Shown here: one piece after another, positions 13,142 to 20,090 of the stretch
Position numbering within the stretch: position 1 is the stretch's first letter
How the letters are laid out: each line of letters starts with the position of its first letter
From: Acidimicrobiia bacterium
GTDB taxonomy: Bacteria > Actinomycetota > Acidimicrobiia > Spongiisociales > Spongiisociaceae
DNA length: 21,876 nt
Assembly: GCA_041576165.1 (NCBI GenBank)
Contig: JBFGLM010000068.1
Coordinates: 1-21,876, forward strand
Direction of reading: 5' to 3'
Notes under the pieces: model-generated
Seen by the model: only the letters and a program-made list of their open reading frames with translations
The model's database searches: none
Told to the model about the DNA's origin: nothing
Program-made: the position numbers and the translations under genes

Positions 13142-13217
13142 GCGGACGTAGCTCAGCTGGTAGAGCGCAACCTTGCCAAGGTTGAGGTCGCCGGTTCGAT
13201 CCCGGTCGTCCGCTCCA
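13142..13217 (+). tRNA. tRNA-Gly(GCC)
   Basis: Cloverleaf with acceptor GCGGACG/CGTCCGC, anticodon arm CAACC-TTGCCAA-GGTTG, GTTCGATCC T-loop and encoded CCA. A TAAGCT -10 lies at 13126-13131. Confidence 0.98.
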
Positions 13218-13218
13218 T

Positions 13219-13244
13219 AGGGCGGTCAGGCTGACCGCCCTTTT
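13219..13244 (+). terminator. Terminator-like hairpin plus TTTT between tRNA-Gly and tRNA-Cys
   Basis: AGGGCGGTCA-GGC-TGACCGCCCT followed by TTT. Confidence 0.55.
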
Positions 13245-13246
13245 CT

Positions 13247-13320
13247 GGCGACGTGGCCGAGTGGTTAGGCAAGGGTCTGCAAAACCCTCTACCCGGGTTC
13301 GATTCCCGGCGTCGCCTCCA
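13247..13320 (+). tRNA. tRNA-Cys(GCA)
   Basis: Acceptor GGCGACG/CGTCGCC; anticodon arm AGGGT-CTGCAAA-ACCCT; encoded CCA. Confidence 0.98.
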
Positions 13321-13338
13321 GCGTAAGATGCCCCTCAC

Positions 13339-13410
13339 GGGCGCTTAGCTCAGTGGAAGAGCGCTTCCTTGACGCGGAAGAGGTCGGCAGTTCGATCCTG
13401 CCAGCGCCCA
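13339..13410 (+). tRNA. tRNA-Val(GAC), CCA not encoded
   Basis: Acceptor GGGCGCT/AGCGCCC; anticodon arm CTTCC-TTGACGC-GGAAG; T-arm GGCAG-TTCGATC-CTGCC. Confidence 0.97.
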
Positions 13411-13705
13411 CTTTCTGAGTGTTGTGATTGGGGTTGTACGTGTGTTGTCGGGAGTGTCCCGGTTGTGGTGGTTTGGATGCGAGGCTTTTTGGGGGGCTGG
13501 CGTGGTGGGGTGGGGTGTTGGCTGATGGTGGCGCCGTGCGGTGGCGCGGATAGGGTTCGATCCCAGTAGCGCCCACTTTCTGAGCGTTGTGTGTGCCGCC
13601 GTACGTGGGTTGTCGGGGGGTGTCCCGGTTGTGGTGGTTTTTTGGGGGGCTGGCGTGGTGGGGTGGGGTGTTGCCTGATGGTGGCGCCGTGCGGTGCTTG
13701 GTTCG
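13390..13705 (+). repeat. Two-copy G/T-rich tandem repeat (165-bp first period) beginning with the tRNA-Val 3' end
   Basis: Unit 1 starts GTTCGATCC at 13390 and unit 2 at 13555. Both share AGCGCCCACTTTCTGAG...TGTCCCGGTTGTGGTGGTTT...GGGGGGCTGGCGTGGTGGGGTGGGGTGTTG.CTGATGGTGGCGCCGTGCGGTG. A further GTTCG begins at 13701. Confidence 0.93.
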
Positions 13706-13757: not shown

Positions 13758-15200
13758 GTGGATCAAGATTCGAGAAGTGCTGCGCCGCGTCCGCTACGGG
13801 CCGCGTTCTTGTCGGCCGTCTTCCCGGGTGCCGGCCAGCTGTACGTGGGCGCTCGCCGCCGGGGCTGGTGGATGCTCGCCATCGACGGCTCATTGATCGC
13901 AATCTTGCTGCTCTACCTGCTGCGCGGCGAGCTGGCCGTGGCCAAGGACTGGGTACGGCCCGGCGCGCTGGCGGTCATGATGATGATCAATCTGGCCCTA
14001 TTCGGTTTTCGAGTAGTGGCTTCCAGAGACGCTTACCTCTTGGCCCGCGGGAGAGCGGAGCCGCACCAGGGCTTAGCCTTCCTGGGCGGTCTCGGGATTG
14101 CGGTGGTGTTGCTGACCCCGCATGCCGTTTTCGGCTATTACAGCGCAGTGCAGTACGAGTTGATCACGACGGTGTTCGAAGCAGAAGATGTCGCCGCCCC
14201 GACCGTCCCGGCCCCGGTCGACCCGTCCCCCACGGCGTCTCCGCCCGGGGCATCCTCGGCTCCGTCGACGACGGTTGTAGGGACGACGGCGGCGTCGGAG
14301 CCGGCGATCTGGGATGGGCTGGACCGGCTCAACGTCTTGCTGCTCGGCGGAGATGCCGGGGTCGGGAGAACCGGCATCCGCACCGATACGATGATCGTCG
14401 TCAGCGTCGACCCGGAAACCGGTAACACCGCGATGTTCGGGATTCCGCGCAACTTCGTGCAGGTCCCGTTGCCGCCAGGGCACGGCGTTTGGGACTGCAA
14501 TTGCTACCCGAGGTTGCTCAACGATCTGTATATCGAGGGGACCCAGCGGCCGGAAGCGTTTCCCGGACCGGGCGAGCCGGGAGTCAACGCCATCAAAGGT
14601 GGGATAAGTCAGTTGCTGGGGATACCCATCCACTACTACGCCCTCGTGACGCTCGATGCCTTCGTCGGCATCGTCGATGCGCTGGGGGGTGTCGAGATCG
14701 ATGTCCAGTTCCGCATAGTGGACGAGATCTATCCCCATGAAGACGGAATCACGATCGAGTCGATCGTGATCGAGCCCGGTGTGCAAACCCTCGATGGTCA
14801 CCTGGCGCTCGCCTATGCCCGGATTCGCCGCCACGCCGACGACTATGCGCGTATGAACCGGCAGCGGTGTGTCCTCGAGGCGCTTGTTGAGCAATCGAAC
14901 CCAGCCGAGCTGGTAATCGCCTATCCGCGCATTGCGTCCGTCTTGGAAGACACGCTGCAGACGGACATCCCAATCTCGCGGCTGCCCGACTTCATAGACC
15001 TGCTGCCGAAGATCGACACCGACCGGATCACCACGCTCCGATTCATCCCACCAACCTATGTGGCCGGCCTCGACGCCCGCGGCAGAGACATTCCCGCCGT
15101 CAAGCGGATCCGCCGCGACGTCCAGGTCGCCATCACCCTTTCACCGGAGGAAGCGATCGCGACCCTCGGCGTCGAGACGCTCGAGGAGACATGCGCTTGA
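13758..15200 (+). CDS. LCP (LytR-CpsA-Psr) family cell-wall glycopolymer transferase with N-terminal TM helices
   Basis: Motifs LNVLLLGGD, RTDTMIVVSVD, GIPRN, FVGIVDALGGV and ALAYARIR...DDYARMNRQRCV. TACGAT lies 6 nt before the GTG, suggesting a leaderless transcript. Confidence 0.95.
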   Translation: MDQDSRSAAPRPLRAAFLSAVFPGAGQLYVGARRRGWWMLAIDGSLIAILLLYLLRGELAVAKDWVRPGALAVMMMINLALFGFRVVASRDAYLLARGRAEPHQGLAFLGGLGIAVVLLTPHAVFGYYSAVQYELITTVFEAEDVAAPTVPAPVDPSPTASPPGASSAPSTTVVGTTAASEPAIWDGLDRLNVLLLGGDAGVGRTGIRTDTMIVVSVDPETGNTAMFGIPRNFVQVPLPPGHGVWDCNCYPRLLNDLYIEGTQRPEAFPGPGEPGVNAIKGGISQLLGIPIHYYALVTLDAFVGIVDALGGVEIDVQFRIVDEIYPHEDGITIESIVIEPGVQTLDGHLALAYARIRRHADDYARMNRQRCVLEALVEQSNPAELVIAYPRIASVLEDTLQTDIPISRLPDFIDLLPKIDTDRITTLRFIPPTYVAGLDARGRDIPAVKRIRRDVQVAITLSPEEAIATLGVETLEETCA

Positions 15201-15396
15201 GAGCTGGCTGCGCGGCTCGCCGTTGACATACAGCACGGGCGCGCCGAGGCGGTTGACGCGATGGGATGGATTCTGCCAACCATCGGACGCTGCGTTTGCC
15301 ACATGGCAGGGGGCGGCGGGCCGTTGGCCTCTTTCGCCGGCACCATCGGCTGTGGCATCAGTGGGGTGAGATGTGATCTCAGGTCGGGAGGTGAGC

Positions 15397-15882
15397 GTGG
15401 ATTCTGGAGTGCGGCCGGTTCCAACGGGCGCCGGTGTCGGATTCTCCCGGGTGGAGACCTCCATCCTGACCAACGGCGTGACCTGGTACATGCGGTCGCG
15501 CCTCGCCGTGGACGACCGACTAATGCGTGTCGCGACACCGCGCACCGTCCTCGGATTCTTACCGATCGGGACGAAGAACTTCGAAGTCGACCTGAATGAG
15601 GTGCGAGGCGCGAGCGTGGGGAGCCGGCTCTACCCGGAGCGGCTGGTCGTGGCGATCGGGCTTGCCCTGCTGGCGGTGCTCGGCGACTTCTCCACGGTGA
15701 CGACGATCCTGCTGGGTGTCGCCACGCTGGCGATGCTCCTGCTGAGCTTCATCGCCGTGCTGCGCATCGAGGCGAAGCCGGAGCGCCCCTTCATAGTGCC
15801 AGTCTGTCTGGCCCACATCCCCCGAGCGCGCCGGGTTGTCGCTGAGATCGAGGAAAGGTCCGCAGCAGCTATCACGAAGTGA
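15397..15882 (+). CDS. Hypothetical membrane protein (two TM helices flanked by beta-rich segments), first gene of a putative operon
   Basis: GGGAGG RBS before GTG 15397 (alternative start 15373); stop is 6 nt before the next ATG. Confidence 0.7.
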   Translation: MDSGVRPVPTGAGVGFSRVETSILTNGVTWYMRSRLAVDDRLMRVATPRTVLGFLPIGTKNFEVDLNEVRGASVGSRLYPERLVVAIGLALLAVLGDFSTVTTILLGVATLAMLLLSFIAVLRIEAKPERPFIVPVCLAHIPRARRVVAEIEERSAAAITK

Positions 15883-15888
15883 CGCGGA

Positions 15889-16524
15889 ATGATCGACGAA
15901 CTGGAGCTGACGGTCCGGATTCTGGGGGCACTTGGGTTACTCACCGTGTGGATCGTCTCTGGATCGGAGGCGGTCCGCAGTCGCGACCGACCGGTCGGTC
16001 GTCGGATCGGGCTGGCGAAGCGACGAGGGGCCCTTGCCGCCTATCTACTGGCGGCGATCCCATATTTCACGGTGTGGATCCTGCTGTGGCGGCCCCTACC
16101 AATCGAACCGCCGCAATGGGCCCGGGTGCTCGCCCTCATCGTCGGTTTCTGCCTCGGCCTCGCCGGCTTGATCGTCTACTTGTGGGGGCGGGTCGCGCTC
16201 GGCGCCATGTACAACGTCAGCTCCACCCTGGGCACCGAGCTATACGCCGACCACCGCCTCGTCACCAGCGGACCCTTCCGCTACGTGCGCCATCCCATGT
16301 ACCTCGGCATTGCGCTGGCCGCGCTTGGGGCGCTGGCGGTCTATCGCAACTGGGCCATGGTCTTCGCAGTTGCCGTCCTTCCCGCCTTCGCCTTGAAGGC
16401 CCGCCACGAAGAGCGCTTATTGGCTGCTGAGTTCGGCGCCGAATGGCAGGCCTACGCAGACCAAGTTCCCGCATGGTGGCCGCGCCGTATCCGCGTAGGT
16501 CATCAGCGGTTGCTCGTCGAGTGA
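15889..16524 (+). CDS. Isoprenylcysteine carboxyl methyltransferase (ICMT/Ste14/PEMT) family membrane methyltransferase
   Basis: HRLVTSGPFRYVRHPMYLG and EERLLAAEFGAEWQAY...VPAWWP signature motifs; multiple TM helices. Confidence 0.9.
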   Translation: MIDELELTVRILGALGLLTVWIVSGSEAVRSRDRPVGRRIGLAKRRGALAAYLLAAIPYFTVWILLWRPLPIEPPQWARVLALIVGFCLGLAGLIVYLWGRVALGAMYNVSSTLGTELYADHRLVTSGPFRYVRHPMYLGIALAALGALAVYRNWAMVFAVAVLPAFALKARHEERLLAAEFGAEWQAYADQVPAWWPRRIRVGHQRLLVE

Positions 16525-16534
16525 GGAGATTGAA

Positions 16535-16654
16535 ATGACCGAGCCACAGGAGCCTCGTGGATCTCGTCCCTGGTTGAACACATTCTTGATTGTCTTAGCA
16601 GTAATCATCATCGGAGTTGGAGTCTGTTTCGCCGTGTTCGCTGGCGGCGGCTGA
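16535..16654 (+). CDS. 39-aa hydrophobic single-Cys peptide absent from the ORF track: MTEPQEPRGSRPWLNTFLIVLAVIIIGVGVCFAVFAGGG; putative precursor peptide
   Basis: Translated by hand. RBS GAGGAG overlaps the upstream TGA; the peptide's TGA overlaps the lgt-like ATG (TGATG). Layout is signal-peptide-like: polar/basic N-region, hydrophobic helix, Gly-Val-Cys. Confidence 0.85.
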   Translation: MTEPQEPRGSRPWLNTFLIVLAVIIIGVGVCFAVFAGGG

Positions 16655-17469
16655 TGTTCCCGGACCTCGCACGATTCGGCGACGTGGCGATCGGTACGCA
16701 CGACGTCTTCGTCGTGCTCGGTGTGATCGTCGCCGTCATTGTGTTCCGCAACGAGAACCGCCGCCGACGGCTCCGCGACCCCCGCCTGTGGACCATTGCG
16801 GCCGGCTCCCTCCTGACCGGAGCCGTGTTCGCCAAGCTGAGCACCGGGTGGCGCTACTTGGCTGAAGACACCGATCCCAGCCTGCTGGGTCTTTGGGTGA
16901 ACGGTGGCAAGAGTCTGCTGGGTGGCCTGGCGGGGGCCTACCTCGGTGCGCTGGTGACCAAGCGTCTCGTCGGATATCCGTATCGAACGGGAGACTCGTT
17001 TGCCCCGGCGGTGGCATTAGGCATCGCCGTCGGTCGGGTCGGCTGTTTCTTGACGGAGCCGATCGGCACCCCCACCTCGCTGCCTTGGGGGATCACCGTA
17101 TCGCCGGAGGTCGGCGCCCGCATACCCAGCTGTCCGCAATGTGCTGCAGGCGTGCCGCTCCATCCGTCGTTCATGTATGAAATCATTGCCCTGCTCGGGC
17201 TGTATGCGCTCCTGCGCTGGCTACGACCGAGGATCGACGTGCCCGGGGAGCTGTTCAAGGTCTTCCTCCTCGGGTACGGCACCCTCCGCTTCTGGGTCGA
17301 GTTCGTGCGCGGCAGCGAGCACTTCGCCCTCGGCCTCAGCGGATCGCAGATCTTCCTACTGCTGACCATGCCGGTCCTCTACGCCTACTTCGTCAGACAG
17401 CTTGCCCGCGGGGCCTACGGCCCCGTGGCCCGCCGAGCCCAACCAGTGTCGCTGGGGAGGATCCCATGA
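16654..17469 (+). CDS. Divergent prolipoprotein diacylglyceryl transferase (Lgt) family paralog
   Basis: GGKSLLGGLAG, GIAVGRVGCF, TSLPWGI, LHPSFMYE and YGTLRFWVEFVR correspond to Lgt motifs GGMSxHGG, GRxGNF, PW, HPxQLYE and YxxxRFxxEFxR. Confidence 0.9.
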   Translation: MFPDLARFGDVAIGTHDVFVVLGVIVAVIVFRNENRRRRLRDPRLWTIAAGSLLTGAVFAKLSTGWRYLAEDTDPSLLGLWVNGGKSLLGGLAGAYLGALVTKRLVGYPYRTGDSFAPAVALGIAVGRVGCFLTEPIGTPTSLPWGITVSPEVGARIPSCPQCAAGVPLHPSFMYEIIALLGLYALLRWLRPRIDVPGELFKVFLLGYGTLRFWVEFVRGSEHFALGLSGSQIFLLLTMPVLYAYFVRQLARGAYGPVARRAQPVSLGRIP

Positions 17470-19025
17470 CGTCGCCTACCAAGTTCGACCGCATCCGAAA
17501 ACCTGTCGTCGCGTATTGCCCCACGTGTCATGTCGCCGACACGGCGGGGTCGCTCGCACAGACCCGGCAACTACCGGGGTGGCTTGCCGAGGCCGGCGGT
17601 GCGGTGTGGCTGAGTCGGGAGTGTCCCTTCCATGGACCGATCATCACGCTTTACGAGGAGAACGCTGAGCTCCTCGACTATCTCGAGCAGTGGACCGCCC
17701 CCACCAAGCCACCCACCCCCGACGCACCGGAGAACGCCTCTCCGATTCCGGGCGCCTACCTCCACGGCCTCGGGGCCCGCCAGATCCAGCACACTTGCAT
17801 CCTGCTCGAAGACATCACCGAGCGTTGCAACCTGAACTGCCCGACTTGTTATGCCGGCTCTTCCCCGCTGCTGACCGGCGTCGCCCCCGTTAGCGAGGTG
17901 CTCGCCAACGTGGATCGCCGCCTCGAGCTGGAGGGGGGACGCCTCGACGTGTTGATGATCAGCGGCGGCGAACCGACGCTCCACCCCGAGCTGTTCTCGC
18001 TCCTCGAGGAGCTCATCGCTCGCGACATCGTTCGCATCATCCTCAACACCAACGGTGTGCTGGTGGCCCGCGACGATGCTCTGCTCGATTTCCTCACCCG
18101 CCACCGCAATCGGCTCGAGATCTACTTGCAGTTCGACGGTTTCGAGAAGGCCACCTACCAATACCACCGTGGAGCCGATCTGCGTAGCTTGAAACAGCGC
18201 GCCGTAGCCCGCCTCTCGGCGGCTGGTGTTTTCACGACGCTCACGATGACCGCCGCCCGCGGCGTCAACGACCACGAGATCGGTGCCGTGGTGCGCTTCG
18301 CCCTCGATACCCCGTTCATCGGCGGCGTGGCCATTCAGCCGGTGTTCGGATCCGGACGCCACGAGCGAATCGATCCTCACGATCGACTCACCAACACTGG
18401 GGTGCTGCGCCGCCTGGGCCCGCAGACCAACGGCATGGTGTCGGCCGAGGACCTGATCGCCTTGCCCTGCTCCCACCCGCATTGCGCCAGCGTCGGATAC
18501 ATGGTGCAGAACGACGAGGGTGACTGGACCAGCATCGTCCGCCTCATTGGCCACGATCGCCTCCTCGAACACCTCGGCCTGGTGAGCAACTGCATCGTGC
18601 AACCCGAGCTGGACGCCGACCTGAGGCTCCTGGTGAAGGAATCGCTGCACGGGCTCTTCAGCGAGCGTTCTTCCCTGACGCATCCCAAGATCAGCGATCT
18701 GTTCGACGTTGTGTTCCGCCGTTGCGACATCGGCCTCACGACGCTGTTGCGTTTGGCGGGGCGGGCAGTGCGCGACCCCAACGCCCTGCGCAAGCTGGTG
18801 GCTACCCGGGTCAAGCGGATCACGATCAAGCCCTTCATGGACATCAACACGATGATCGAAGAACGCCTGCTGCAGTGTTGCGTCCACGTCGGCACCGTAG
18901 GAGAGCGCCACCAGTGTGTTCCCTTCTGCGCCGCTCAGGCGTGGCCGGCGCTGGGGAGGATGAAGCTGGCGGAGGCGGCCCGGGAGCGCGTGTCGGTCAC
19001 CGGGGCGTTGGCTCCCTTGGCCTGA
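17466..19025 (+). CDS. Radical SAM enzyme of the Tes/GDGT-MAS (MJ0619, tetraether synthase)-like family
   Basis: N-terminal rubredoxin-like CPTC...CPFHG; CxxxCxxC motif CNLNCPTC; SGGEPT, NTNG, IYLQFDG, GVNDHEIG, QPV; C-terminal SHPHC...PFMD...CCVH...PFC. Start overlaps the lgt-like stop (ATGA). Confidence 0.9.
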   Translation: MTSPTKFDRIRKPVVAYCPTCHVADTAGSLAQTRQLPGWLAEAGGAVWLSRECPFHGPIITLYEENAELLDYLEQWTAPTKPPTPDAPENASPIPGAYLHGLGARQIQHTCILLEDITERCNLNCPTCYAGSSPLLTGVAPVSEVLANVDRRLELEGGRLDVLMISGGEPTLHPELFSLLEELIARDIVRIILNTNGVLVARDDALLDFLTRHRNRLEIYLQFDGFEKATYQYHRGADLRSLKQRAVARLSAAGVFTTLTMTAARGVNDHEIGAVVRFALDTPFIGGVAIQPVFGSGRHERIDPHDRLTNTGVLRRLGPQTNGMVSAEDLIALPCSHPHCASVGYMVQNDEGDWTSIVRLIGHDRLLEHLGLVSNCIVQPELDADLRLLVKESLHGLFSERSSLTHPKISDLFDVVFRRCDIGLTTLLRLAGRAVRDPNALRKLVATRVKRITIKPFMDINTMIEERLLQCCVHVGTVGERHQCVPFCAAQAWPALGRMKLAEAARERVSVTGALAPLA

Positions 19026-19070
19026 GGGGTTCCTGCGTTTCCGGCACCGGTGGGCCGCATGCGGGTGGTG

Positions 19071-20090
19071 CTATCTCTTGGGCCTCTGGTCCTTCTCATC
19101 GCGCAGGACTCGACCCATCAGCTCGAACACGGCCGTGCGGGGGTCCTTGTCCTCGTAGAGGATCTGGTAGATCTGCTCGGTGATGGGCATCTCCACGCCT
19201 TCGGCCGCGGCCAGTGCCCGGGCCGCCTGGGTCGTCCGTACCCCCTCGGCGACGGTCTGCGTCTCGCCGAGGATGTCGGCGAGCTTGCGTCCCTTGCCGA
19301 TCTCGATGCCGACCGCGCGGTTGCGGGACAGACCTCCGGTGCAGGTGAGTATCAGGTCGCCCATCCCCGACAACCCGGCAAAGGTGAACGGGTCACCGCC
19401 GCGGGCAACTCCCAAGCGAGTGATCTCGGCGAGGCCGCGGGTGATCAGCGCAGCCGTCGAGTTGTGGCCGAAACCGAGGCCGGCACAGATGCCGGCGGCC
19501 ACGGCGATGACGTTCTTCAGCGCGCCCCCCAGCTCTACCGCCACGACGTCATCCGAGGAGTAGACCCGGAAGGCGTTCGTCGAGAACAGGTCACGCACCA
19601 GGCGGGCGTTGTGGGCTGATCGGCTGGCCGCCACCACAGCCGTCGGATGACCGGCCGCCATTTCTTTGGCGAAGGATGGCCCTGACATGGCTACCGGAGC
19701 CAGCAGGCCCTCGGCAACTTCGGCGAGGATCTCGGTGGGGGTCTGCAGAGTATTCACCTCGATGCCCTTGCTGATGGACACCACGACGGCGCGCTGCAGA
19801 GCTGCGTCGTGCCCGGCGAAGACGCTCCGCACGTACTGCGTGGGCACGGCGGAGACCACGATGTCGGCGGTCTCCAGACACGCTTTGAGGTCGCCGGTCA
19901 CCTCGAGAGTGGCCGGAAGCGCCACTCCCGGAAGGAAGATGGGGTTCTCGCGGCCGGCGGCGATTGCGTCCACGACTTCCGGCTCGCGCGCCCACAGCGT
20001 GGTTGGCACGCCCAATTCGGCGAGATGTTTGGCGAGCGCCGTGCCCCACGCCCCGGCTCCCACCACAACCGCAGCGATGTCGTCTGTCAT
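19071..20090 (-). CDS. gpsA: NAD(P)H-dependent glycerol-3-phosphate dehydrogenase
   Basis: Motifs GAGAWGTALA, SKGIE, SGPSFAKE, ELGGALKNVIA, GLSGMGDLILTC, SRNR and AEGV. Start placed at ATG 20090. Confidence 0.97.
   Translation of the reverse strand: MTDDIAAVVVGAGAWGTALAKHLAELGVPTTLWAREPEVVDAIAAGRENPIFLPGVALPATLEVTGDLKACLETADIVVSAVPTQYVRSVFAGHDAALQRAVVVSISKGIEVNTLQTPTEILAEVAEGLLAPVAMSGPSFAKEMAAGHPTAVVAASRSAHNARLVRDLFSTNAFRVYSSDDVVAVELGGALKNVIAVAAGICAGLGFGHNSTAALITRGLAEITRLGVARGGDPFTFAGLSGMGDLILTCTGGLSRNRAVGIEIGKGRKLADILGETQTVAEGVRTTQAARALAAAEGVEMPITEQIYQILYEDKDPRTAVFELMGRVLRDEKDQRPKR

What the first reader, a model, noticed from the sequence alone, without database searches (positions are those of the whole stretch)
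16535..16654. Hidden 39-aa precursor-like peptide with a non-canonical lipobox
Seen: MTEPQEPRGSRPWLNTFLIVLAVIIIGVGVCFAVFAGGG is essentially only a signal peptide. The single Cys is followed by just 8 residues (FAVFAGGG). The pre-Cys sequence VGV-C departs from the canonical [LVI][ASTVI][GAS]C lipobox by having Val at -1. The codons are visibly more AT-rich than the flanking genes. Inference: the non-canonical box may hide it from housekeeping Lgt/LspA and reserve it for the adjacent paralog. The product would be either a lipidated uncleaved TM peptide or a 9-mer lipopeptide CFAVFAGGG.
Basis: partly seen in the sequence, partly recalled or inferred. Interest (0 to 1): 0.8.

Follow-up and report, generated by a model that had tools for sequence, protein, structure and literature searches.

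The report
Cysteine membrane peptide beside Lgt paralog
The 39-residue reading frame is a real, conserved gene: the smallest member of an undescribed family of membrane proteins that end in a helix, a Gly-x-Cys motif and a short tail, and that always sit next to a second copy of the lipoprotein-lipidating enzyme Lgt and a lipid-coupling radical SAM enzyme.

Summary
Window 16535-16654(+) encodes the stated 39 aa. It has a GAGGAG ribosome site 6 nt upstream, and its stop overlaps the ATG of the Lgt paralog (TGATG). GC dips to 0.50.

It is under purifying selection. Against the ortholog in L028, 13 codons are identical, 17 differ synonymously and 9 differ conservatively.

It is the minimal member of a family. 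In 76 of 83 related loci from at least five phyla, the Lgt paralog (invariant His16/Cys131, the MSMEG_5408 type) has a same-strand neighbour. This is a membrane protein of about 38-200 aa ending in a basic residue, a 20-21-residue helix, G-x-C and a 6-16-residue tail. A radical SAM enzyme homologous to the archaeal tetraether synthase GDGT-MAS lies beside the paralog in 80 of 83 loci. No other gene family is shared.

In six genomes searched, profile hits at E 0.023 or better (five of the six at E < 1e-5) lie only at these loci, so the partner is dedicated and not a general sorting tag.

Best reading (0.5): Cys31 is the private lipidation site of the paralog. The peptide probably stays uncleaved, and the radical SAM enzyme remodels the lipid. 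Lipidation itself is untested.

I found no description in Pfam, NCBIfam or the literature searched. Interest is high.

The parts
16523..16528 (+). Shine-Dalgarno-like GAGGAG, 6 nt before the ATG. It overlaps the stop codon of the upstream methyltransferase gene.
   Evidence: TGAGGAGA is conserved in L028 while the flanking bases diverge.
16535..16654 (+). 39-aa membrane peptide, the minimal member of the C-terminal 'basic residue - helix - G-x-C - short tail' family.
16571..16624 (+). Predicted transmembrane helix (about residues 13-30). Arg11 lies 20 residues before Cys31.
   Evidence: Hydropathy of the 18 residues before Cys is about 2.5 in the L028 ortholog. The spacing from the last charged residue to Cys is 20 or 21 in 59 of 79 family members.
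16619..16627 (+). G29-V30-C31 motif. Cys31 is the proposed lipid acceptor.
   Evidence: G29 and C31 are the only invariant columns of alignment A3, but both were selection criteria. Independently, 78 of 86 hits chosen without a Gly requirement carry Gly at -2.
16628..16651 (+). 8-residue uncharged tail FAVFAGGG.
   Evidence: Family tails are 6-16 residues, mode 9. The range is 5-20 in database members.
16654..17469 (+). Lgt paralog (271 aa) of the His16/Cys131 type. It is translationally coupled to the peptide (TGATG).
   Evidence: Pfam LGT 2.5e-32, 112.6 bits. It scores below the NCBIfam lgt cut-off, 67.4 against 118.9. Alignment to E. coli Lgt 5azb. Invariant columns.
17466..19025 (+). Radical SAM enzyme (519 aa) homologous over its full length to archaeal GDGT-MAS/Tes. 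Its start overlaps the lgt-paralog stop.
   Evidence: Radical_SAM plus Zn_ribbon_HMPTM. It scores below the TrsS and Tes cut-offs. PDB 7tol E 7.7e-37, residues 34-490 against 34-492. It lies beside the Lgt paralog in 80 of 83 loci.
15889..16524 (+). ICMT/PEMT-family membrane methyltransferase. This is a lineage-specific neighbour, not a core part.
   Evidence: A same-strand homolog is present only in L028 among 83 loci.
15373..15882 (+). 169-aa membrane protein with no family match. It is a lineage-specific neighbour.
   Evidence: A homolog occurs only in L028, at 53% identity.

Best explanation
The frame encodes a real single-pass membrane peptide. It is predicted to sit with its N-terminus in the cytoplasm and its C-terminus outside. 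It is the dedicated partner of the two enzymes encoded just downstream.

Shown: it is the minimal member of a conserved family defined by a basic residue, a helix of fixed length, G-x-C and a short uncharged tail. Family members occur only beside an Lgt paralog and a GDGT-MAS-like radical SAM enzyme, one or two per enzyme pair.

Inferred: the helix mimics the charged and hydrophobic regions of a lipoprotein signal peptide and places Cys31 at the outer-leaflet boundary, which is where Lgt enzymes work. The paralog transfers a diacylglyceryl (or related) lipid to the Cys31 thiol. The paralog keeps the Lgt arginines and glutamates but has His in place of Tyr26 and Cys in place of Asn146. Because position -1 is bulky, signal peptidase II probably does not cut, so the product stays a helix-anchored, S-lipidated peptide.

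More speculative: the radical SAM enzyme, a homolog of the enzyme that joins lipid tails carbon to carbon, then remodels the attached or donor lipid.
For: Coding and translation signals: a ribosome site, a stop-start overlap with lgt, 17 synonymous against 9 conservative codon differences to L028, and strain variants.

Family: the Cys-near-C-terminus hydrophobic motif occurs in 86 of 2364 same-strand reading segments near the gene pair, against 8 of 5635 elsewhere. Seven of those 8 lie just downstream of the radical SAM gene on the same strand, and only 1 is on the other strand. By the strict filter, 76 of 83 loci have a G-x-C protein. L039 and L106 have one that the filter missed.

Mini versions of 38-50 aa lie directly upstream of lgt with overlapping stop and start in the window, L028, L005, L033 and L034.

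Geometry: the last charged residue is R or K in 78 of 79 members and lies 20-21 residues before Cys in 59 of 79. The window peptide has 20.

Dedication: in the own genome the profile's two best of 90,327 six-frame segments are the window peptide and the partner of the second enzyme pair on contig C1. That second partner was not in the model (E 0.023; the next hit is 0.58). In five other genomes all 6 hits with E < 1e-5 lie inside the lgt/radical SAM loci.

Phyletic pattern: among 41 related genomes, the paralog (E <= 1e-74) and the radical SAM enzyme (E <= 1e-30) occur in the same 3 genomes and in no other.

Enzyme: the positions matching E. coli R143, G154, H196, R239, E243 and R246 are invariant in 56 of 56 paralogs.

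Only these two enzyme families are shared by the loci.
Against: No experiment and no expression data exist: no RNA run was listed. Lipidation is inferred only from adjacency, topology and homology.

The paralog lacks Tyr26, His103 and Asn146. A preprint calls the M. smegmatis member one of 'presumed low Lgt activity'.

The radical SAM enzyme should be cytoplasmic, whereas Cys31 is predicted to be outside, so the role of the second enzyme is unclear.

Gly at -2 and Cys were selection criteria for alignment A3 and for the profile, so part of the motif statistics is circular.

Only 80 of the 566 or more candidate loci were examined.

One-to-one stoichiometry fits a subunit as well as a substrate.
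Confidence: 0.5

Rival explanations
1. The peptide is a small structural subunit or scaffold of a membrane complex formed by the Lgt paralog and the radical SAM enzyme. Its Cys serves as a covalent lipid carrier or a metal or cluster ligand. The real product would be a free membrane lipid, for example a membrane-spanning lipid, and not a lipoprotein.
For: There are one or two partners per enzyme pair and none elsewhere in six genomes. The genes are tightly coupled translationally. Both enzymes are homologs of lipid-handling enzymes. Bacterial Tes homologs have been proposed to make membrane-spanning lipids (passage read).
Against: The partner's gene position varies: upstream, between, or downstream of the enzyme genes. 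Its N-terminal part varies from nothing to several helices. Several loci carry two partners for one enzyme pair. This looks more like a portable tag than a fixed subunit. The fixed depth of the Cys matches the geometry of an Lgt acceptor.
Confidence: 0.2
2. The peptide is a precursor of a released lipopeptide. After lipidation a peptidase cuts before Cys31 and frees S-diacylglyceryl-CFAVFAGGG. In larger members the product would be a 7-17-residue lipopeptide.
For: The layout resembles a leader plus a core. The tail is strongly conserved within clades, for example C-T-G-[LI]-N-P-x-x-Y in Mycobacteriales and Streptosporangiales. The own genome has one signal peptidase II gene.
Against: Position -1 is Ala in only 22 of 146 members and never Gly or Ser. 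From recalled knowledge of the lipobox, signal peptidase II needs a small residue there. No protease family is shared by the loci. Discarding a 100-200 aa membrane protein to release a short tail seems wasteful.
Confidence: 0.12
3. The radical SAM enzyme, not the Lgt paralog, acts on the Cys. It could, for example, form a thioether between the thiol and an unactivated lipid carbon. The Lgt paralog would only supply or position the lipid.
For: The radical SAM enzyme is as tightly linked to the partner as the Lgt paralog is. It is a full-length homolog of a lipid C-H-activating enzyme.
Against: The predicted topology puts the Cys on the outer side, away from a cytoplasmic SAM-dependent enzyme. 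Pfam reported only Radical_SAM and the zinc ribbon, with no peptide-recognition domain.
Confidence: 0.1
4. The frame is a regulatory leader or coupling frame for the lgt paralog, or a chance open frame, and its product has no function.
For: It is very short. It overlaps the lgt start. It has unusual codon composition. It has no family match.
Against: The amino-acid motif is conserved across phyla wherever the gene sits relative to lgt. Substitutions are mostly synonymous or conservative. A profile search of 1.84 billion proteins gives 149 hits, of which 146 carry G-x-C 3-22 residues from the C-terminus.
Confidence: 0.03

Closest known systems
Bacterial prolipoproteins and the Lgt/LspA pathway (lipobox signal peptides)
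   Same: A positively charged stretch is followed by a hydrophobic helix and then a Cys at the outer membrane boundary. An Lgt-family enzyme is encoded next door and retains the catalytic Arg and Glu residues.
   Different: The motif is x-G-[bulky]-C, not [LVI][ASTVI][GAS]C. The helix has a fixed full length of 20-21 residues. The module sits at the C-terminus of the protein. Only 6-16 residues follow the Cys, so there is no mature domain. The enzyme is a distinct paralog clade (His for Tyr26, Cys for Asn146) and scores below the NCBIfam lgt cut-off. It is always paired with a radical SAM enzyme.
MSMEG_5408, the second Lgt homolog of Mycolicibacterium smegmatis
   Same: A preprint passage reports Y26H and N146C for MSMEG_5408. 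These are the same two substitutions that are invariant in 56 of 56 paralogs here. The family includes Mycolicibacterium and Mycobacterium loci.
   Different: I could not fetch the M. smegmatis locus itself, so its membership and its neighbours are inferred. The passages I read treat it as a redundant or weak Lgt and mention neither a radical SAM partner nor a dedicated substrate.
Archaeal tetraether synthase GDGT-MAS/Tes (PDB 7tol)
   Same: The window's radical SAM enzyme aligns over residues 34-490 of 519, including the N-terminal zinc ribbon, the CxxxCxxC site and the C-terminal Cys cluster.
   Different: It scores far below the Tes equivalog cut-off (159.7 against 450 bits). It occurs in aerobic Actinomycetota and others that are not known tetraether producers (recalled). 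It is tied to an Lgt paralog and a Cys-bearing protein, which Tes is not.
Cys-containing C-terminal sorting signals (MYXO-CTERM and relatives) and eukaryotic CAAX processing
   Same: There is an invariant Cys near a C-terminal helix. Lipidation by an 'Lgt-like' enzyme is proposed for MYXO-CTERM (passages read). In the window an ICMT-family methyltransferase lies directly upstream, recalling CAAX carboxyl methylation.
   Different: The order is reversed: basic residues, helix, Cys, tail, instead of Cys motif, helix, Arg cluster. No CPBP/Rce1-type protease is shared by the loci. There are one or two targets per genome rather than dozens. The tail is 6-16 residues, not 3. The ICMT gene is present on the same strand in only the window and L028. 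The Haft preprint mentions neither Lgt, nor radical SAM, nor a lipobox (0 occurrences).

Membership tests
Canonical bacterial lipoprotein precursor | Lipobox [L/V/I]-3 [A/S/T/V/I]-2 [G/A/S]-1 C | tested here: not met
   The window has V-G-V-C. Positions -2 and -1 fall outside the pattern printed in the abstract listed. Family-wide, -2 is Gly, and -1 is never Gly or Ser in 146 members.
Canonical bacterial lipoprotein precursor | N-terminal signal peptide followed by a mature domain after the Cys | tested here: not met
   Only 8 residues follow the Cys. In 146 of 149 database relatives the motif lies 3-22 residues from the C-terminus of proteins with a median length of 114 aa.
Canonical bacterial lipoprotein precursor | S-diacylglyceryl modification and cleavage by signal peptidase II | not testable with these tools
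   Needs mass spectrometry, labelling or globomycin experiments.
C-terminal G-x-C partner family (defined here) | A basic residue 20-21 positions before an invariant Cys, Gly at -2, and an uncharged tail of 6-16 residues | tested here: met
   Arg11 is 20 residues before Cys31, Gly29 is at -2, and the tail is 8 residues.
C-terminal G-x-C partner family (defined here) | Encoded on the same strand beside the His16/Cys131 Lgt paralog and the GDGT-MAS-like radical SAM enzyme | tested here: met
   The same arrangement occurs in 76 of 83 loci, plus L039 and L106.
Lgt (prolipoprotein diacylglyceryl transferase) for the neighbouring enzyme | Pfam LGT domain and the conserved residues listed in the passage (Y26 H103 R143 N146 E151 G154 Y235 R239 E243 R246) | tested here: inconclusive
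   The Pfam match passes its cut-off. The NCBIfam equivalog is not reached. The positions of R143, G154, R239, E243 and R246 are invariant. Y235 is kept in 50 of 56. The positions of Y26, H103 and N146 are replaced by His, Leu/Ile/Val and Cys. An invariant Glu lies one position off E151.
Tes / GDGT-MAS for the radical SAM enzyme | NCBIfam equivalog score, and full-length homology with the zinc ribbon | tested here: inconclusive
   It scores 159.7 bits against a cut-off of 450. Full-length homology to 7tol is E 7.7e-37, and the zinc ribbon is present. It is a homolog, not an equivalog.
MYXO-CTERM-type sorting signals | The order Cys motif, then helix, then a C-terminal Arg cluster, with a cognate CPBP protease | tested here: not met
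   The order is reversed. No third conserved family is present in the loci.
RiPP precursor with a radical SAM maturase | A peptide-recognition (RRE/PqqD-like) or SPASM maturase domain, and a hypervariable core | tested here: inconclusive
   Pfam found only Radical_SAM and the zinc ribbon. SPASM maturase models match only the radical SAM core, far below their cut-offs. The tail is variable between clades but conserved within them.

The most novel reading that the evidence does not exclude
This would be a three-part system that builds a protein-tethered, remodelled membrane lipid. The Lgt paralog hangs a diacylglyceryl group on the outer-leaflet Cys of a dedicated helix. The tetraether-synthase-like radical SAM enzyme then joins the end of that lipid's tail carbon to carbon with another tail. 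The second tail would be either in the same lipid (a macrocycle) or in an inner-leaflet lipid, which would make a membrane-spanning anchor covalently bound to protein. This would be the first bacterial function for Tes homologs. It would also explain the 'second Lgt' of mycobacteria.
Probability: 0.15. Interest if true: 0.95.

Novelty: new variant of a known kind. Interest (0 to 1): 0.78.

Why it matters
Protein lipidation by Lgt is treated as one universal pathway with one lipobox. This finding gives comparative evidence for a second, private branch. It has its own enzyme clade, its own non-canonical C-terminal Cys motif and an obligatory radical SAM partner. It is spread over Actinomycetota (including Mycobacterium, Nocardia and Nonomuraea), Chloroflexota, Gemmatimonadota, Acidobacteriota and Rhodothermales records.

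Two open questions become directly testable with a defined substrate candidate of only 39 residues: what the second Lgt homolog of mycobacteria (the MSMEG_5408 type) does, and what bacterial homologs of the archaeal tetraether synthase do.

It is also a clean example of a functional small protein. The exact sequence was not in the ESM Atlas, and the window peptide did not appear among the hits of the database searches. Whether any gene caller annotated it was not tested directly.

Tried and rejected
1. Direct sequence search for the peptide. tblastn of the 39-aa peptide against 83 loci found only L028. The family became visible only through a motif scan.

2. Complex prediction with the Lgt-paralog alignment A5 and the peptide alignment A3 gave no verdict (score 0.00, mark 0.32, controls not folded). 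I do not count it for or against binding.

3. Expression. The look-up of sequencing runs listed no RNA holder. Only DNA contigs could be laid, so there is no evidence on transcription or translation.

4. ESM Atlas. The best feature scores were 0.80-0.83, all below 0.9, so nothing usable came of it.

5. Pfam and NCBIfam on the peptide and on 10 larger partner proteins gave only sub-threshold chance-level hits.

6. Rfam over the whole window found only three tRNAs. The promoter and terminator scan of 15000-19400 gave nothing useful.

7. The ICMT-like methyltransferase as a core component (a CAAX analogy) is rejected as a general feature. A same-strand homolog occurs only in L028 of 83 loci.

8. 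The general sorting-signal idea (many targets per genome) is rejected. Hits are confined to the loci in six genomes.

9. Literature. Searches found no paper that links an Lgt paralog with a radical SAM or Tes homolog or with a C-terminal Cys motif. For 10.1101/2025.01.07.631728, 10.1101/2025.03.27.645668, PMC11868695, 10.1101/2023.06.07.544157, PMC11980579, PMC13188914 and PMC13159169 I read only passages found by term search. For PMC12462473 I saw only the listed abstract start. Supplements are closed. Suppl. Fig. 5 of 10.1101/2025.03.27.645668, on Lgt variants with N146C, may bear on the paralog clade, and I could not see it.

11. Caveats on counts. The strict filter required a Cys 4-20 residues from the end, and no charge in the 14 residues before it. 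and alignment A3 also required Gly at -2, so invariance of Gly and Cys there is by construction. For A3 I used 73 of the 79 motif proteins (near-duplicates and L023 were left out). The seven loci without a strict hit are: L039 and L106, which have a partner that the filter missed; L070, which has a Cys without Gly at -2; L045, L061 and L104, where the contig ends nearby; and L092, where none was found. Only the best 80 of 566 confirmed stretches were examined. Genomes G028 and G039 are flagged unpublished.

Full report
**1. The observation**

- GAGGAG lies at 16523-16528, 6 nt before the ATG.
- The TGA overlaps the ATG of the next gene (TGATG at 16652-16656).
- The frame almost fills the 129-nt gap between the flanking genes.
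- It has a single Cys (residue 31), preceded by V-G-V and followed by 8 uncharged residues.
- By the lipobox as printed in the abstract listed, both -2 (Gly) and -1 (Val) are non-canonical.
- GC falls to 0.50 within the frame, against 0.62-0.70 around it.
- GC3 is 0.57, against 0.78-0.83 in the neighbours.

**2. The surroundings**

Pfam and NCBIfam give one same-strand run of tightly packed genes:
- an LCP-family transferase (13758-15200);
- a 169-aa membrane protein with no family (15373-15882);
- an ICMT/PEMT-family methyltransferase (15889-16524);
- the peptide;
- an Lgt-family protein (16654-17469; Pfam LGT 112.6 bits, but only 67.4 bits against the NCBIfam lgt cut-off of 118.9);
- a radical SAM protein with an N-terminal zinc ribbon (17466-19025), whose start overlaps the lgt stop.

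gpsA converges from the other strand.

The radical SAM protein aligns over residues 34-490 with the solved archaeal tetraether/macrocyclic archaeol synthase GDGT-MAS (7tol, E 7.7e-37). It scores far below the Tes and TrsS equivalog cut-offs.

The own genome has three LGT-family genes, two copies of this radical SAM enzyme and one signal peptidase II gene. One LGT gene and one radical SAM copy form a second, similar cluster on contig C1.

**3. The frame is a gene**

The closest locus is L028, an Acidimicrobiaceae record whose Lgt paralog is 75% identical. It has the same frame in the same place, with a conserved ribosome site.
- Of 39 aligned codons, 13 are identical, 17 differ synonymously and 9 give conservative hydrophobic replacements.
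- Differences by codon position are 11/2/19.
- L033 and L034 carry a 50-aa version with a GTG start. The two copies differ almost only at synonymous sites.
- A natural strain variant (run X6) has two synonymous changes and Phe17Leu inside the frame.

**4. It is the minimal member of a family**

I scanned GTDB species genomes with an alignment of four paralogs. The scan gave at least 599 pattern matches, of which 566 were confirmed. The best 80 were kept as loci L028-L107. They come from Acidimicrobiia, Mycobacterium, Mycolicibacterium, Nocardia, Nonomuraea, Microbacterium, Micromonosporaceae, Nocardioides, Chloroflexota (Limnocylindria and others), a Gemmatimonadaceae, a Blastocatellia and a Rhodothermales record. 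Three loci from relatives bring the total to 83.

*Enzyme linkage.* The radical SAM homolog (46-80% identity) lies beside the paralog in 80 of the 83 loci. The 3 exceptions sit on short contigs. All-against-all clustering of every frame of 90 aa or more shows that these two are the only families shared by more than 10 loci; other large clusters are alternative frames of the radical SAM gene.

*Motif scan.* The scan asked for a Cys 4-20 residues from the C-terminus, preceded by 18 hydrophobic residues with no charge in the last 14.
- It hit 86 of 2364 same-strand segments near the pair, against 8 of 5635 elsewhere.
- Seven of those 8 lie just downstream of the radical SAM gene. Only one is on the opposite strand.
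- 78 of the 86 carry Gly at -2, although Gly was not required.
- By this filter 76 of 83 loci have a G-x-C protein.

*The seven loci without a strict hit.* L039 and L106 have a partner that the filter missed. L070 has Cys without Gly at -2. L045, L061 and L104 are truncated. L092 has none found.

*Gene position and size.* The gene may lie upstream of lgt, between lgt and the radical SAM gene, or after the radical SAM gene. Sizes run from 38 to about 200 aa. Some loci have two.

*Positional statistics (Gly and Cys were required here).*
- The last charged residue before the Cys is Arg or Lys in 78 of 79.
- It sits exactly 21 (45 of 79) or 20 (14 of 79) residues upstream. The window has 20.
- Gly recurs at -20, -18, -16 and -12.
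- Tails are 6-16 residues, mode 9.

*Database profile search.* A profile of 73 C-termini searched against 1.84 billion representative proteins gave 149 hits at E <= 0.001, with lengths 25-204 and median 114. Of these, 146 carry G-x-C 3-22 residues from the C-terminus. Position -1 is V/L/A/F/I/P/T/Y/W/M and never Gly or Ser. None of 10 larger members matches any Pfam or NCBIfam family.

**5. A dedicated partner, not a general tag**

In the own genome, the two best profile hits among 90,327 six-frame segments are the window peptide and the partner in the second cluster on C1. That second partner was not in the model (E 0.023; the next hit is 0.58).

In five further genomes of 3.9-7.6 Mb, all six hits with E < 1e-5 lie inside the lgt/radical SAM loci.

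Among 41 related genomes, the paralog at ortholog level and the radical SAM enzyme occur in the same three genomes and in no other. The distribution is patchy, as for an accessory system.

**6. The enzyme next door**

In 56 of 56 paralogs, the residues at the positions of E. coli R143, G154, H196, R239, E243 and R246 are invariant. I mapped these through the alignment to 5azb and the residue list quoted.

The paralogs invariably have His at the Tyr26 position and Cys at the Asn146 position. They have Leu, Ile or Val at the His103 position. A preprint passage reports the same Y26H and N146C pair for MSMEG_5408, the second M. smegmatis Lgt homolog, whose function is not established.

**7. Mechanism**

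*Shown:* the gene is real; the family and its geometry; its exclusive linkage to the two enzymes.

*Inferred:*
- By the positive-inside rule, the basic cluster is cytoplasmic and the Cys lies at the outer-leaflet boundary.
- That is where Lgt enzymes act on the lipobox Cys (recalled knowledge of E. coli Lgt).
- The module is therefore a full-length, C-terminally placed mimic of a lipoprotein signal peptide, with a private recognition motif.
- The simplest reading is that the paralog lipidates Cys31.
- The bulky -1 residue argues against signal peptidase II cleavage (recalled specificity).
- I therefore favour an uncleaved, helix-anchored and lipidated product.

*Weakest step:* the role of the radical SAM enzyme. 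By homology it should activate a lipid tail C-H bond and form a C-C bond. I propose that it remodels the attached or donor lipid.

*Rivals:* a non-substrate subunit or lipid carrier; a released lipopeptide; direct radical SAM chemistry on the Cys; and, now unlikely, a regulatory or chance frame.

**8. Comparison and novelty**

The system works like lipoprotein lipidation but fails the membership tests for a canonical lipoprotein: lipobox, mature domain and N-terminal position. It is the topological reverse of MYXO-CTERM-type Cys signals and lacks their protease. The CAAX analogy suggested by the ICMT-like neighbour holds only for the window and L028.

My literature searches and the family libraries gave no description of this three-gene system.

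I rate it a new variant of a known kind. There is a real chance (about 0.15) that it is something categorically new, namely protein-tethered remodelled or membrane-spanning lipid.

**9. Limits**

- There are no expression or biochemical data.
- Only 80 of the 566 or more confirmed stretches were examined.
- Part of the motif statistics is circular, as stated above.
- The complex prediction gave no verdict.

Noticed in passing
L031-L106, just after or overlapping the 3' end of the radical SAM gene (e.g. L039:5935-6417, L061:785-2554, L094:5796-6086): In roughly 40 of 84 loci the radical SAM gene is followed by, or in L061 extended by, a two-helix hairpin. The hairpin has a strongly conserved loop, about RARRAGLxRS[KR]CxL[RG]DTR, containing another conserved Cys. 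This may be a fourth component or a membrane anchor. The window's copy lacks it.
   Followed up: partly
window 13142-13700: A tRNA-Gly(GCC), tRNA-Cys(GCA) and tRNA-Val(GAC) cluster lies at 13142-13411. It is followed by a duplicated unit of about 150-165 nt that includes a second copy of the tRNA-Val 3' end (13390-13452 against 13555-13617, 81%; 13483-13543 against 13636-13696, 97%). This could be an attachment-site remnant or a local duplication.
   Followed up: partly
window 16654-17469, residues 160-163 of the Lgt paralog: A C-P-x-C pair lies in the loop that aligns with the external head region of E. coli Lgt. It is present in 39 of 56 paralogs and absent, partly by deletion, in the rest. 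It may be a clade-specific disulfide or a redox motif near the active site.
   Followed up: partly
own genome contig C1:114409-117076 and C1:124950-125723: A second complete system lies on C1: an Lgt paralog 51% identical to the window's, a partner ending LIGTCVALIVASLSGA, and a radical SAM enzyme 61% identical. It is only about 8 kb from the third, more divergent LGT-family gene. That gene itself reads GRIGD at the Asn146 position and His at the Tyr26 position, so the housekeeping Lgt of this organism is also atypical.
   Followed up: partly
window 16535-16654 versus L028:3385-3501: The low GC3 of the peptide gene (0.57) is specific to this genome. The ortholog in L028 has GC3 0.77. No explanation was found.
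   Followed up: partly
window 15373-16524 and L028:2248-3353: The 169-aa membrane protein of no known family and the ICMT/PEMT-like methyltransferase directly upstream of the peptide are conserved together in L028 only (53% and 72% identity). They may be a lineage-specific add-on to the system.
   Followed up: no
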